DNA of 64,000 nucleotides from Escherichia coli (GCF_009931435.1 NZ_CP043414.1), one strand, 5' to 3'. Counted from the stretch's first letter, positions 26,478-27,059 are shown. Numbers and translations: made by a program. Notes: generated by a model from the sequence alone, not told the origin.

Positions 26478-27059
26478 TCTATATTCATATTAATTAATGG
26501 CGCATTGAAAAAAATTATATTATTCTTAACTCAAATCCATTAGCTTAATAAGATTATATTCTTCACTCACAACCGTAACAAAAATAATATTATCGAAAGT
26601 TAAAGTTGGGACTATCAAATTTCGCTCATTTCAAACATACATTGTGATTTTTGCAATCATCTTAATCTTAGGGCCTATCATCATATGTTAAAATTTTGTC
26701 AATAATAGAAATGAATCTTGGTCACCTATCATGCGTTATAAATGTGCAACTGGCTTCCTGCAGATGCTCTTAACTTCTACAGCAGGATTTATACCAGCGT
26801 TTCAGAACTATCATATTTACCTTAAATGATCATTTCAGTCTTATAACACGCTCAGCCTCACAAATGGTTTACACTGTCTATTGTTTGGGTAATTTAAGTA
26901 AGTCAGCTACGATCAACCTTGAATGGGGAGCCAGCAATGGACTTAAGCCTAATCGGGTCTTCAGATTGTTTCAGAATTGTATAAAAAACAATGTATTAAA
27001 TAATCTGATTGTTTTTGGTCATAGTGTGACGCAGAAAGCAAGCCAATAAGGAAATGATT

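What the first reader, a model, noticed from the sequence alone, without database searches (positions are those of the whole stretch)
26478..27059. Long AT-rich untranslated region between the islet gene and ybjP
About 580 bp of AT-rich non-coding DNA separates the islet ORF start from ybjP. It must contain the divergent promoters of both genes and is the kind of sequence H-NS binds. Only a weak 61-codon ORF (26864..27049) is present. The original ybjP/ybjQ divergent promoter architecture has presumably been split by the insertion, which may alter expression of both backbone genes.
Basis: inference. Interest (0 to 1): 0.3.

Follow-up and report, generated by a model that had tools for sequence, protein, structure and literature searches.

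The report
Islet-borne replacement promoter region for ybjP
The AT-rich spacer is part of a small foreign DNA islet that destroyed the original back-to-back ybjP/ybjQ promoters. In about a fifth of E. coli strains it now supplies new promoters and a long leader for ybjP, a lipoprotein partner of TolC; this is a real but fairly ordinary case of regulatory rewiring.

Summary
An ORF-poor stretch of 32% GC lies between the islet gene and ybjP. It is really 654 bp (26406-27059), because the islet gene starts at the ATG at 26405.

Alignment to empty-site genomes shows that all but the last 14 bp is islet DNA. A 2559-bp insert (24487-27045) replaces about 50 bp of the ancestral 125-bp ybjQ-ybjP spacer. 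Both K-12 transcription starts (ybjP -56, ybjQ -76) lay in that 50 bp.

The islet is in about 1128 of 5426 complete E. coli genomes, as two alleles. The window carries the rare one, with an intact 589-aa pentapeptide-repeat gene.

The spacer has two parts:
- **Distal half (26406-26734):** as diverged between alleles as the gene (77% identity).
- **ybjP-proximal 311 bp:** 92% identical, with no indels.

Published Cappable-seq data for EDL933 (common allele) place ybjP starts 177, 179 and 208 nt upstream, which map to window 26883, 26881 and 26852, inside the best-conserved core.

The 61-codon ORF is EDL933 Z1096, an orphan. It shows a modest excess of synonymous changes (P about 0.003). However, it has no Shine-Dalgarno sequence, nonsense alleles exist, and most transcripts lack its start codon.

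H-NS binding is plausible but untested. Overall: ordinary, and a new member of a known kind.

The parts
24103..24426 (-). ybjQ (backbone gene on the left of the islet)
   Evidence: Pfam YbjQ_1, E = 2.7e-39. PGAP annotations in L001-L004.
24427..24486 (.). Retained 60 bp of the ancestral ybjQ-ybjP spacer. It holds the ybjQ leader, a -10 GATAAT (24471-24466, minus strand) for a TSS at about 24460, and the orphaned upstream half of the old ybjP p1 promoter.
   Evidence: 92-95% identical to the empty-site alleles; homology ends at 24486. The promoter-like hit 24494->24466 fits the EDL933 ybjQ TSS at -34.
24487..24635 (-). Left non-coding end of the islet. It carries an islet-borne ybjQ promoter TTGACA(24535-24530)-16-TAAACT(24513-24508), with a TSS at about 24503-24504.
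   Evidence: Absent from empty sites. 85% identical between alleles. The 10/12 consensus hit coincides with the EDL933 ybjQ TSS at -78.
24636..26405 (-). Islet gene: pentapeptide-repeat protein, 589 aa, intact in this window (rare 'type A' allele).
   Evidence: Pfam Pentapeptide/Pentapeptide_4. 73% aa identity to the common E. coli allele. PGAP start in L091. dN/dS about 0.25 against type B.
26406..26734 (.). Distal half of the spacer: 28% GC, fast-diverging islet DNA, presumed upstream region and leader of the islet gene.
   Evidence: 77% identity between type A and type B, with indels. GC. 36-nt tandem repeat at 26521-26592.
26589..26618 (-). Best candidate promoter for the islet gene (TTGATA-18-GATAAT), which would give a leader of about 177 nt.
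   Evidence: 10/12 consensus match. Both hexamers are unchanged between alleles in a segment that is 23% diverged. No experimental TSS was found, so this is inference only.
26735..27045 (+). Proximal half of the spacer: a conserved islet segment that carries the ybjP promoters and most of the ybjP leader.
   Evidence: 92% identity between type A and type B, and no indels in the 9 aligned type-B copies (1110 type-B genomes fall in the 90-95% identity band; all 38 listed full-length matches are gap-free, 325->325 bp). Retained when IS1 deleted everything to its left in CUWW06. No similarity to any backbone spacer.
26842..26852 (+). ybjP promoter P2: -10 TATAAC (26842-26847) and TSS 26852 (208 nt upstream of the ATG).
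   Evidence: EDL933 gTSS 1033043, seen in exp salt, stat M9 and stat salt, mapped. The hexamer is conserved in both alleles.
26870..26883 (+). ybjP promoter P1: -10 TACACT (26870-26875) and TSS 26881/26883 (179/177 nt upstream of the ATG).
   Evidence: EDL933 gTSS 1033012 (exp LB, exp M9, exp salt, stat salt) and 1033014 (stat LB, stat acid). 26856-26912 is 100% identical between alleles.
26883..27059 (+). Long ybjP 5' leader (177 nt, against 56 nt in K-12). Contains an imperfect hairpin with arms 26961-26971 / 26998-27008.
   Evidence: TSS mapping. Hairpin. Overall folding is no better than shuffles (z = -1.0 to -1.7).
26864..27049 (+). 61-codon ORF, homologue of EDL933 Z1096 (orphan hypothetical). 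Its stop overlaps the ybjP Shine-Dalgarno sequence.
   Evidence: Exact and cluster look-ups. No homologue outside this islet. 9 synonymous of 16 allele differences, P = 0.003. Nonsense alleles in L003 and L094. No SD. Only TSS 26852 includes its ATG.
27046..27059 (+). Backbone-like ybjP ribosome-binding region (ATAAGGAAATGATT), where homology to empty sites resumes.
27060..27575 (+). ybjP (lipoprotein, TolC partner). Codons 4-9 (27069-27087) are an islet-linked divergent signal-peptide allele.
   Evidence: NCBIfam PRK10533, E = 1e-98. N-terminal comparison. Function from PMC13082787.

Best explanation
The spacer is the right-hand non-coding part of a 2.56-kb horizontally acquired AT-rich islet (24487-27045). 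The islet replaced about 50 bp at the centre of the ancestral 125-bp ybjQ-ybjP divergent promoter region.

**What the insertion destroyed.** It removed the sigma-S-type ybjP p1 promoter: the junction bisects its -10 hexamer and its TSS at -56 is gone. It also removed the ybjQ TSS at -76.

**What now drives ybjP.** In islet carriers, ybjP is transcribed from two islet-borne promoters in the conserved ybjP-proximal 311 bp:
- P1: -10 TACACT, TSS 26881/26883.
- P2: -10 TATAAC, TSS 26852.

These give a leader of 177-208 nt instead of 56 nt.

**What now drives ybjQ.** An islet-borne promoter at the other end of the islet (TSS about 24503) and a backbone -10 (TSS about 24460).

**The rest of the spacer.** The distal half (26406-26734) is the upstream region and leader of the pentapeptide-repeat gene. 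It evolves as fast as that gene. It is probably poorly expressed or silenced, with H-NS the likely agent (inferred).

**Shown:** junctions, prevalence, the two-part divergence pattern, and the TSS positions in the sister allele.
**Inferred:** that the window allele uses the same TSSs, which sigma factor acts, and H-NS involvement.
For: **Junctions and the 50-bp replacement.** (the K-12 50-mer is found nowhere in the islet).

**Ancestral compact spacer.** In all Escherichia and other Enterobacteriaceae species recovered the ancestral spacer is compact: typically about 96-136 bp, 96-280 bp overall where no insert is present.

**Presence/absence polymorphism.** The spacer is present in 1128 of 5426 genomes, always at this locus.

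**Two-part divergence.** Mismatches are 75 of 329 aligned bases in the distal half against 25/311 in the proximal half, with no indels in the proximal half.

**Experimental TSSs.** Cappable-seq in EDL933 gives ybjP starts at 177, 179 and 208 nt, against 56 nt in MG1655. For ybjQ it gives 78 and 34 nt, against 76 nt (PMC10469882 Table S5). The K-12 -56 TSS by primer extension is confirmed in PMC2760140.

**Mapping onto the window.** The TSSs map with appropriately spaced -10 hexamers, inside a block that is identical between alleles (26856-26912). The two ybjQ TSSs coincide with the two minus-strand consensus hits of the blind promoter scan.

**Natural deletion.** An IS1 deletion variant keeps exactly the proximal segment.
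Against: - No TSS data exist for the window's own (type A) allele. The mapping rests on 92% overall identity and on conserved hexamers.
- Neither ybjP promoter has a recognisable -35, and the tool's promoter scan found no plus-strand hit in 26600-27059.
- The lower divergence of the proximal half could come partly from recombination rather than constraint. L088 is an A/B recombinant with a breakpoint at about 26905-26913, and synonymous divergence in the Z1096 frame (0.29) is about half that of the islet CDS (0.6).
- No TSS for the islet gene was found, and the supplementary tables were truncated when stored.
- H-NS binding is untested, and the nucleation motif is not enriched.
Confidence: 0.78

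Rival explanations
1. The 61-codon ORF (Z1096 homologue, 26864-27049) is a real small protein or upstream ORF. It would be co-transcribed with ybjP from P2 and end on the ybjP Shine-Dalgarno sequence, so its translation would modulate ybjP translation. On this reading the conservation of the proximal half is partly coding constraint.
For: - It is the only open frame. Of the 16 fixed A-versus-B differences, 9 are synonymous, against 3.9 expected under spectrum-matched random placement (P = 0.003). dN/dS is 0.15-0.21, the lowest of the six frames.
- All 7 differences in the in-frame stretch just upstream of the ATG are non-synonymous, so the signal starts at the ATG.
- The first 16 codons are invariant.
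- TSS 26852 lies 12 nt upstream of the ATG, and the EDL933 study assigned it to the then-annotated hypothetical gene RS04965.
- The stop TAA overlaps the ybjP SD.
Against: - There is no Shine-Dalgarno sequence.
- The TSS detected in most conditions (26881/26883) lies downstream of the ATG.
- 2 of 9 sampled type B genomes carry nonsense mutations, at codons 13 and 37.
- An ORF of this length is expected by chance (P = 0.2-0.3).
- No homologue exists outside the islet and there is no Pfam or NCBIfam match.
- PGAP did not call it in any of the RefSeq records examined (features under the match 'none').
- The AlphaFold2 model is poor (pLDDT 48.8).
- It appears in none of the held EHEC RIBOseq supplements.
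Confidence: 0.2
2. The higher conservation of the proximal 311 bp reflects recombination history: homogenisation spreading in from the shared ybjP flank. It would not reflect functional constraint, and the promoters there would be incidental.
For: - L088 is an A/B recombinant with its breakpoint inside this segment.
- The adjacent ybjP 5' end is about 97-99% identical between carriers of the two alleles (100% over the first ~50 nt of the CDS).
- Identity rises stepwise from 77% to 92% to 97-99% towards the backbone.
- Synonymous-site divergence in the ORF frame is half that of the islet CDS.
Against: - 8% divergence is still well above that of the flanking backbone.
- The left end of the islet shows no such gradient: 85% identity right up to the junction.
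- The least-diverged core (26800-26912) coincides with the mapped TSSs and -10 elements.
- None of the aligned or listed type-B copies has an indel here (9 aligned; 38 listed full-length matches), whereas the distal half has several indels.
Confidence: 0.3
3. The spacer encodes a regulatory RNA: an sRNA, or a structured cis-acting leader such as a riboswitch or RNA thermometer.
For: A long (177-208 nt) leader exists, with a hairpin predicted in both alleles at 26961-27008.
Against: - No Rfam match at E <= 1 inside the spacer.
- No intrinsic terminator.
- Folding energies are not better than shuffles: z = -1.0, -0.9 and -1.7.
- No paper in the library links an sRNA to this locus.
Confidence: 0.07
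4. The spacer is the decayed remnant of a former islet gene (pseudogene debris).
For: - 654 bp is long for an E. coli intergenic region.
- The Z1096 frame shows a past coding-like substitution pattern.
- The main gene is a pseudogene in the type B genomes sampled, apart from one that lost it to IS1.
Against: A search of 5.8 billion proteins with the 91-residue open frame found only this ORF itself. There are no Pfam hits, and no other frame stays open.
Confidence: 0.08

Closest known systems
E. coli O157:H7 EDL933 islet Z1096-Z1098 between ybjP and ybjQ (common 'type B' allele; also in Sakai, O55:H7 and, by source names on the protein clusters, Shigella)
   Same: Same insertion site and junctions, same gene order, the same 654-bp spacer architecture, and the same small ORF (Z1096). 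Its ybjP and ybjQ TSSs have been mapped experimentally.
   Different: The window carries a rare allele (about 18 of 5426 genomes). It is only 84.5% identical in DNA overall and 73% in protein, and its pentapeptide gene is intact, whereas in EDL933 and the other type B genomes sampled here the gene is split or truncated.
K-12 ybjP p1 promoter (sigma-S-dependent; TSS -56, Lacour & Landini 2004, as cited in PMC2760140 and PMC13082787)
   Same: It drives the same gene, and the ybjP Shine-Dalgarno sequence and start codon are retained.
   Different: The K-12 promoter is physically destroyed here: the junction falls inside its -10 (GCTAT|TAT). The replacement TSSs are 121-152 nt further upstream, in unrelated DNA. 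The C at -13 that is typical of sigma-S promoters is absent from both new -10 elements.
Xenogeneic silencing of AT-rich horizontally acquired DNA by H-NS (established knowledge: Navarre 2006, Lucchini 2006)
   Same: 2.56 kb at 32% GC in a 50% GC genome. No TSS was detected for the islet gene in 8 conditions in EDL933, within the held data.
   Different: No binding data exist for this locus. The 10-bp H-NS nucleation motif is not enriched beyond composition. The ybjP-proximal part is transcriptionally active in exponential LB, so it is not fully silenced.
Promoter replacement or capture by inserted mobile DNA (for example outward-reading promoters of IS elements and islands)
   Same: An insertion into a divergent promoter region separates core genes from their native promoters, and the inserted DNA provides new ones at both ends.
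   Different: No transposase, integrase, tRNA or terminal repeats are associated with the islet. The islet-linked foreign ybjP 5' codons suggest it arrived by homologous recombination, not by transposition.

Membership tests
Horizontally acquired genomic islet (strain-specific 'O-island') | Presence/absence polymorphism at a fixed chromosomal site, with an identifiable empty site | tested here: met
   1128 of 5426 genomes carry it. Empty sites have a 125-bp spacer. Junctions are 24486/7 and 27045/6.
Horizontally acquired genomic islet (strain-specific 'O-island') | Base composition unlike the host backbone | tested here: met
   32% GC against 50% GC. It is the only stretch with GC <=36% in the 64-kb window.
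Horizontally acquired genomic islet (strain-specific 'O-island') | Absent from outgroup species at the same site | tested here: met
   E. albertii, Escherichia sp., Salmonella, Citrobacter, Enterobacter, Klebsiella and others lack it. The spacer has no similarity to their loci.
H-NS-bound / xenogeneically silenced DNA | H-NS occupancy (ChIP) and derepression in an hns mutant | not testable with these tools
   No ChIP data for an islet-carrying strain were found. Only composition supports it. The motif TCGATAAATT has one hit at <=2 mismatches, against 1.8 expected.
Bacterial promoter plus 5' leader of ybjP | Experimentally mapped transcription start(s) within the segment | tested here: met
   Met for the sister allele: EDL933 Cappable-seq TSSs at -177, -179 and -208. 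They map to 26883, 26881 and 26852. Not measured in a type A strain.
Bacterial promoter plus 5' leader of ybjP | -10 element 5-8 nt upstream of the TSS | tested here: met
   TACACT at 26870-75 and TATAAC at 26842-47, both conserved in the two alleles.
Bacterial promoter plus 5' leader of ybjP | Recognisable -35 element / consensus sigma-70 architecture | tested here: not met
   No plus-strand hit of >=9/12 in 26600-27059. Compatible with a sigma-S or activator-dependent promoter, but that is inference.
Small protein gene / upstream ORF (Z1096) | Purifying selection in the reading frame | tested here: inconclusive
   9 synonymous of 16 differences, P = 0.003, and the best of six frames. However, only two allele classes exist, and 2 of 9 type B copies carry nonsense mutations.
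Small protein gene / upstream ORF (Z1096) | Ribosome-binding site and evidence of translation | tested here: not met
   No SD upstream of the ATG at 26864. Not found in the held RIBOseq supplements. Direct translation data are not available.
Small protein gene / upstream ORF (Z1096) | Homologues or a known domain | tested here: not met
   Only self-hits among 5.8 billion proteins. No Pfam or NCBIfam match. AlphaFold2 pLDDT 48.8.
Known RNA family (sRNA, riboswitch, leader) | Match to an Rfam covariance model | tested here: not met
   No hit at E <= 1 in 24300-27600. The only hit, a sub-threshold CRISPR-DR53 match, lies downstream of ybjP.

The most novel reading that the evidence does not exclude
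The islet did more than swap the ybjP promoter. It also placed a genuine 60-61-aa orphan protein gene or upstream ORF (Z1096) in front of ybjP. This ORF is transcribed only from the stress-induced P2 start and terminates on the ybjP ribosome-binding site. Under this reading, about a fifth of E. coli strains (including O157:H7 and, by source names on the protein clusters, Shigella) would control the TolC-partner lipoprotein YbjP through a new, translationally coupled leader peptide.
Probability: 0.15. Interest if true: 0.5.

Novelty: new member of a known kind. Interest (0 to 1): 0.27.

Why it matters
YbjP was recently shown to be a lipoprotein partner of the efflux and secretion duct TolC, and it is reported to be RpoS-regulated (PMC13082787). 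This locus shows that about 21% of complete E. coli genomes, including O157:H7 and O55:H7 (source names on the protein clusters also list Shigella), have lost the K-12 sigma-S promoter of ybjP. They express the gene from unrelated, horizontally acquired DNA with a leader three to four times longer.

Results on ybjP regulation obtained in K-12 therefore cannot be transferred to these lineages without testing.

It is also a clean natural example of a small islet rewiring both neighbours of a divergent promoter region. The empty site, two deeply diverged islet alleles, an IS1 deletion derivative and a recombinant are all available for comparison.

This is useful context rather than a surprise. 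Promoter replacement by inserted DNA is well known, and the islet itself has been in public genomes since 2001.

Tried and rejected
- **Rfam scan** of 24300-27800 at E <= 1: nothing in the spacer.
- **Intrinsic terminator scan:** none.
- **H-NS nucleation motif enrichment:** 1 hit against 1.8 expected from shuffles.
- **Leader folding** in both alleles: z-scores of -0.9 to -1.7, not significant.
- **Homology search** with the 91-residue open frame against 5.8 billion proteins: only self-hits. Pfam and NCBIfam: nothing.
- **AlphaFold2 on the 61-aa ORF:** pLDDT 48.8, uninformative.
- **ORF length as evidence:** rejected, because a 61-codon ORF arises in 20-32% of composition-matched simulations.
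- **Traces of backbone spacer inside the islet:** the K-12 50-mer scores no better than shuffles. The proximal spacer has no significant similarity to about 80 outgroup loci.
- **Paralogous copies of the spacer elsewhere in E. coli:** none; the median is 1 place per genome.
- **Third allele class to add power to the selection test:** only two classes exist.
- **Literature searches:**
  - Z1096/Z1097/ECs095x: two incidental mentions.
  - EHEC RIBOseq supplements: no entry.
  - ybjP with sRNA and O157: none.
  - ybjP with H-NS: nothing relevant to islet carriers.
  - Lacour & Landini 2004 itself is not held.
- **Filing the islet protein under EspX/NleL:** considered and not adopted. The only PDB hit is a generic pentapeptide protein at E = 1.7e-4.

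Full report
**Setting.** The window is E. coli backbone, in the order ybjT-ybjS-amiD-ybjQ | islet | ybjP-artPIQMJ. The finding concerns the DNA between the start of the islet ORF and ybjP.

**Observation.**
- GC is 32.3% for 26478-27059, and the same for 26406-27059, against 50.2% for the window.
- Only 2.2% of 654-bp windows are as AT-rich. All windows with GC <=36% lie within about 24.4-27.16 kb, i.e. over the islet.
- The only ORF of >=40 codons is 26864-27049. An ORF of that length arises in 20-32% of composition-matched simulations.
- The left boundary needs correcting. The 26477 start is simply the longest ORF. PGAP calls the intact allele as 589 aa from the ATG at 26405, and database homologues are 589 or 600 aa. 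The 600-aa GTG start of the common allele is out of frame here because of a 1-bp indel at 26407. The spacer is therefore 26406-27059, 654 bp.

**Is it islet or backbone?**
- Empty-site E. coli have a 125-bp ybjQ-ybjP spacer.
- Homology to them runs from ybjQ to 24486 and resumes at 27046, 14 nt before the ybjP ATG.
- The 2559 bp in between replace about 50 bp of the ancestral spacer. That 50-mer is found nowhere in the islet.
- One scan of species-representative genomes with YbjP returned 80 loci from Escherichia, Salmonella, Citrobacter, Enterobacter, Klebsiella, Kosakonia and others. In these, the ybjQ-ybjP gap is typically about 96-136 bp (96-280 bp where no insert is present). Exceptions are a few Citrobacter, and apparently one Enterobacter sichuanensis locus (L034, not examined), with unrelated inserts at the same spot.
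- None of these loci resembles the window spacer.
- The compact divergent arrangement is therefore ancestral, and the whole spacer except its last 14 bp is foreign.

**Distribution and alleles.**
- The spacer occurs in 1128 of 5426 complete E. coli genomes, always at this locus and never on plasmids.
- There are two allele classes. The window type (A) is in about 18 genomes. The common type (B) is in about 1110 genomes, including O157:H7 EDL933, Sakai and EC4115, and O55:H7 (source names on the protein clusters also list Shigella), and is 84.5% identical overall.
- The type A gene is intact (589 aa, pentapeptide repeats). It is 73% identical in protein to type B, with dN/dS of about 0.25 and dS of about 0.6.
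- In the type B genomes sampled the gene is a pseudogene, or in one case was removed by IS1.

**The spacer has two parts.** Type A against type B:

| Segment | Identity |
|---|---|
| Islet left non-coding end | 85% |
| Islet CDS | 81% |
| Distal spacer (26406-26734) | 77%, with indels |
| Proximal spacer (26735-27045) | 92%, no indels |
| ybjP 5' end | 97-99% |

- The 9 aligned type B copies have no indels here; the 1110 type B genomes fall in the 90-95% identity band (listed rows 91.4-92.6%), and all 38 listed full-length matches are 325 bp to 325 bp.
- The least-diverged core is 26800-26912, with 3 differences in 113 bp.
- A natural IS1 deletion (CUWW06) removed everything from the islet's left non-coding end to about 26721 but kept the proximal part.

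**What the conserved part does.** A Cappable-seq study of EDL933 (PMC10469882, Table S5) lists these starts for ybjP (EDL933_RS04960):

| EDL933 position | Distance upstream of ATG | Conditions |
|---|---|---|
| 1033012 | 177 nt | exp LB, exp M9, exp salt, stat salt |
| 1033014 | 179 nt | stat LB, stat acid |
| 1033043 | 208 nt | exp salt, stat M9, stat salt |

- The value for MG1655 is 56 nt. That K-12 start was mapped by primer extension (Lacour & Landini 2004, as tabulated in PMC2760140).
- I fetched the EDL933 record and mapped the positions. They correspond to window 26883, 26881 and 26852.
- TACACT (26870-75) and TATAAC (26842-47) sit at proper -10 distances. Both hexamers are conserved, and 26856-26912 is identical between alleles.
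- Neither promoter has a good -35.
- The proximal spacer is therefore the promoter region plus a 177-208-nt leader of ybjP.

**What happened to the old promoters.**
- In K-12, the -56 start follows GC-TATTAT, a -10 with C at -13. That feature is typical of sigma-S promoters (established knowledge), and ybjP is reported as RpoS-regulated (PMC13082787).
- The left islet junction falls in the middle of that hexamer (TAT|TAT). Its upstream half now sits next to ybjQ, 2.56 kb from ybjP.
- The K-12 ybjQ start at -76 also lay in the replaced 50 bp.
- EDL933 uses ybjQ starts at -78 and -34. These coincide with the two minus-strand hits of the blind consensus scan:
  - TTGACA-16-TAAACT at 24535->24508, in islet DNA.
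  - TTCCCA-17-GATAAT at 24494->24466, straddling the junction.

**Distal half.**
- The best promoter-like sites in the spacer point towards the islet gene. These are 26618->26589 and 26581->26553, each matching 10/12.
- The hexamers of the first are unchanged between alleles; those of the second are not.
- No TSS for the islet gene appears in the held parts of the EDL933 tables, which were truncated when stored.
- H-NS silencing fits the composition, but it is inference. The nucleation motif is not enriched, and no ChIP data for a carrier strain were found.

**The small ORF.**
- 26864-27049 is the homologue of EDL933 Z1096. It has no relatives outside this islet, no domain and no SD.
- Its stop overlaps the ybjP SD.
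- Of the 16 fixed differences between alleles, 9 are synonymous in this frame, against 3.9 expected when the same base changes are placed at random (P = 0.003). The other five frames give P > 0.14. dN/dS is 0.15-0.21.
- All 7 differences in the in-frame stretch upstream of the ATG are non-synonymous.
- Evidence against a real gene:
  - 2 of 9 sampled type B copies carry nonsense mutations.
  - The main TSS lies downstream of the ATG.
  - PGAP did not call it in any RefSeq record examined ('none' under the match).
  - No RIBOseq entry was found.
  - The AlphaFold2 model is poor.
- I rate a real or formerly real small gene or upstream ORF at about 0.2.

**Rival for the conservation.** Recombination from the ybjP flank could lower divergence without any function. 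L088 is an A/B recombinant with a breakpoint at about 26905-26913, and dS in the ORF frame is half that of the CDS. However, the left end of the islet shows no such gradient, the core coincides with the mapped promoters, and the segment is indel-free in every aligned and listed copy. Both processes probably contribute.

**Origin.** Islet carriers share a divergent ybjP signal-peptide allele (MRYRSLSLLIP, against MRYSKLTMLIP in all empty-site Escherichia). The last ~25 nt before the SD resemble Citrobacter sequences. No integrase, transposase, tRNA or terminal repeats are present. This suggests the islet entered E. coli by homologous recombination, together with a foreign ybjP 5' end. This is inference.

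**Verdict.** This is a new, well-documented instance of a known phenomenon. Interest is low to moderate, and is raised slightly by the recent link between YbjP and TolC.

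Noticed in passing
L012 1376-4500, L013 1343-4500, L014 2274-4500, L019 2910-4500, L026 3365-4500: The ybjQ-ybjP intergenic site also holds unrelated 1.1-3.2-kb inserts in several Citrobacter species. Cargo includes a 432-aa ORF that by eye looks like a phytase/acid phosphatase, a CspA-like 70-aa ORF with a 91-aa Cys-rich ORF, and, in Citrobacter sp. FP75 (L014), a 214-aa ORF whose N-terminus (MTLALDGERIDRNRFTG...) resembles QnrB as I recall it. None of these labels was checked against a profile library. The site looks like a recurrent insertion hotspot across genera.
   Followed up: partly
window 27069-27087 (ybjP codons 4-9) and 27030-27045: Islet carriers of both alleles share a divergent ybjP signal-peptide sequence (MRYRSLSLLIP, against MRYSKLTMLIP in every empty-site Escherichia). 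The ~25 nt before the SD resemble Citrobacter (GTAGAAAGCTAATAAGGAAAT). This suggests the islet arrived by homologous recombination with a foreign ybjP 5' end, so the true right boundary of the imported DNA may lie inside ybjP.
   Followed up: partly
L005 (CUWW06) 1513-2838; L090 (MFDS1022581) 1-3267; L088 (2020CK-00188) 2601-3252: Three natural derivatives of the locus exist. In CUWW06, IS1 replaces window-equivalent ~24641-26721 and keeps the ybjP-proximal segment. In MFDS1022581, IS2 sits in the pentapeptide gene, and a 13-bp tandem duplication (AAAGCAAGCCAAT) lies just before the ybjP SD. 2020CK-00188 is a type A/type B recombinant with a breakpoint at about 26905-26913.
   Followed up: partly
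L002 1837-3638, L088 831-2632, L089 831-2632 (window 24636-26437): PGAP flags the type A pentapeptide gene as 'frameshifted' in three RefSeq genomes, but tblastn shows an uninterrupted 589-aa match. The flag seems to be an artefact of forcing the type B GTG start (600 aa). That start is out of frame in type A because of a 1-bp indel at 26407, near an A8 tract at 26419-26426.
   Followed up: partly
window 26521-26592; 26821-26838: A 36-nt tandem direct repeat (72% identity) lies in the distal spacer; some type B alleles have a 9-bp deletion there. A perfect 12-bp palindrome AAATGATCATTT, containing a GATC site, lies just upstream of the ybjP P2 -10 element and is invariant between alleles. Either could be a protein-binding site or chance: a 12-bp palindrome is expected about 0.3 times in AT-rich DNA of this length.
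   Followed up: no
window 27605-27641 (minus strand): A sub-threshold Rfam hit to CRISPR-DR53 (25.2 bits against a gathering score of 45, E = 0.11). It is a G+C-rich hairpin just downstream of ybjP, most likely its terminator or a REP-like element, and not a CRISPR repeat.
   Followed up: no
window 24466-24535 (minus strand): The two consensus promoter hits upstream of ybjQ match the published EDL933 ybjQ TSSs at -78 and -34 within about 1-2 nt. One of the two lies wholly in islet DNA, at almost the same distance as the lost K-12 TSS at -76.
   Followed up: yes
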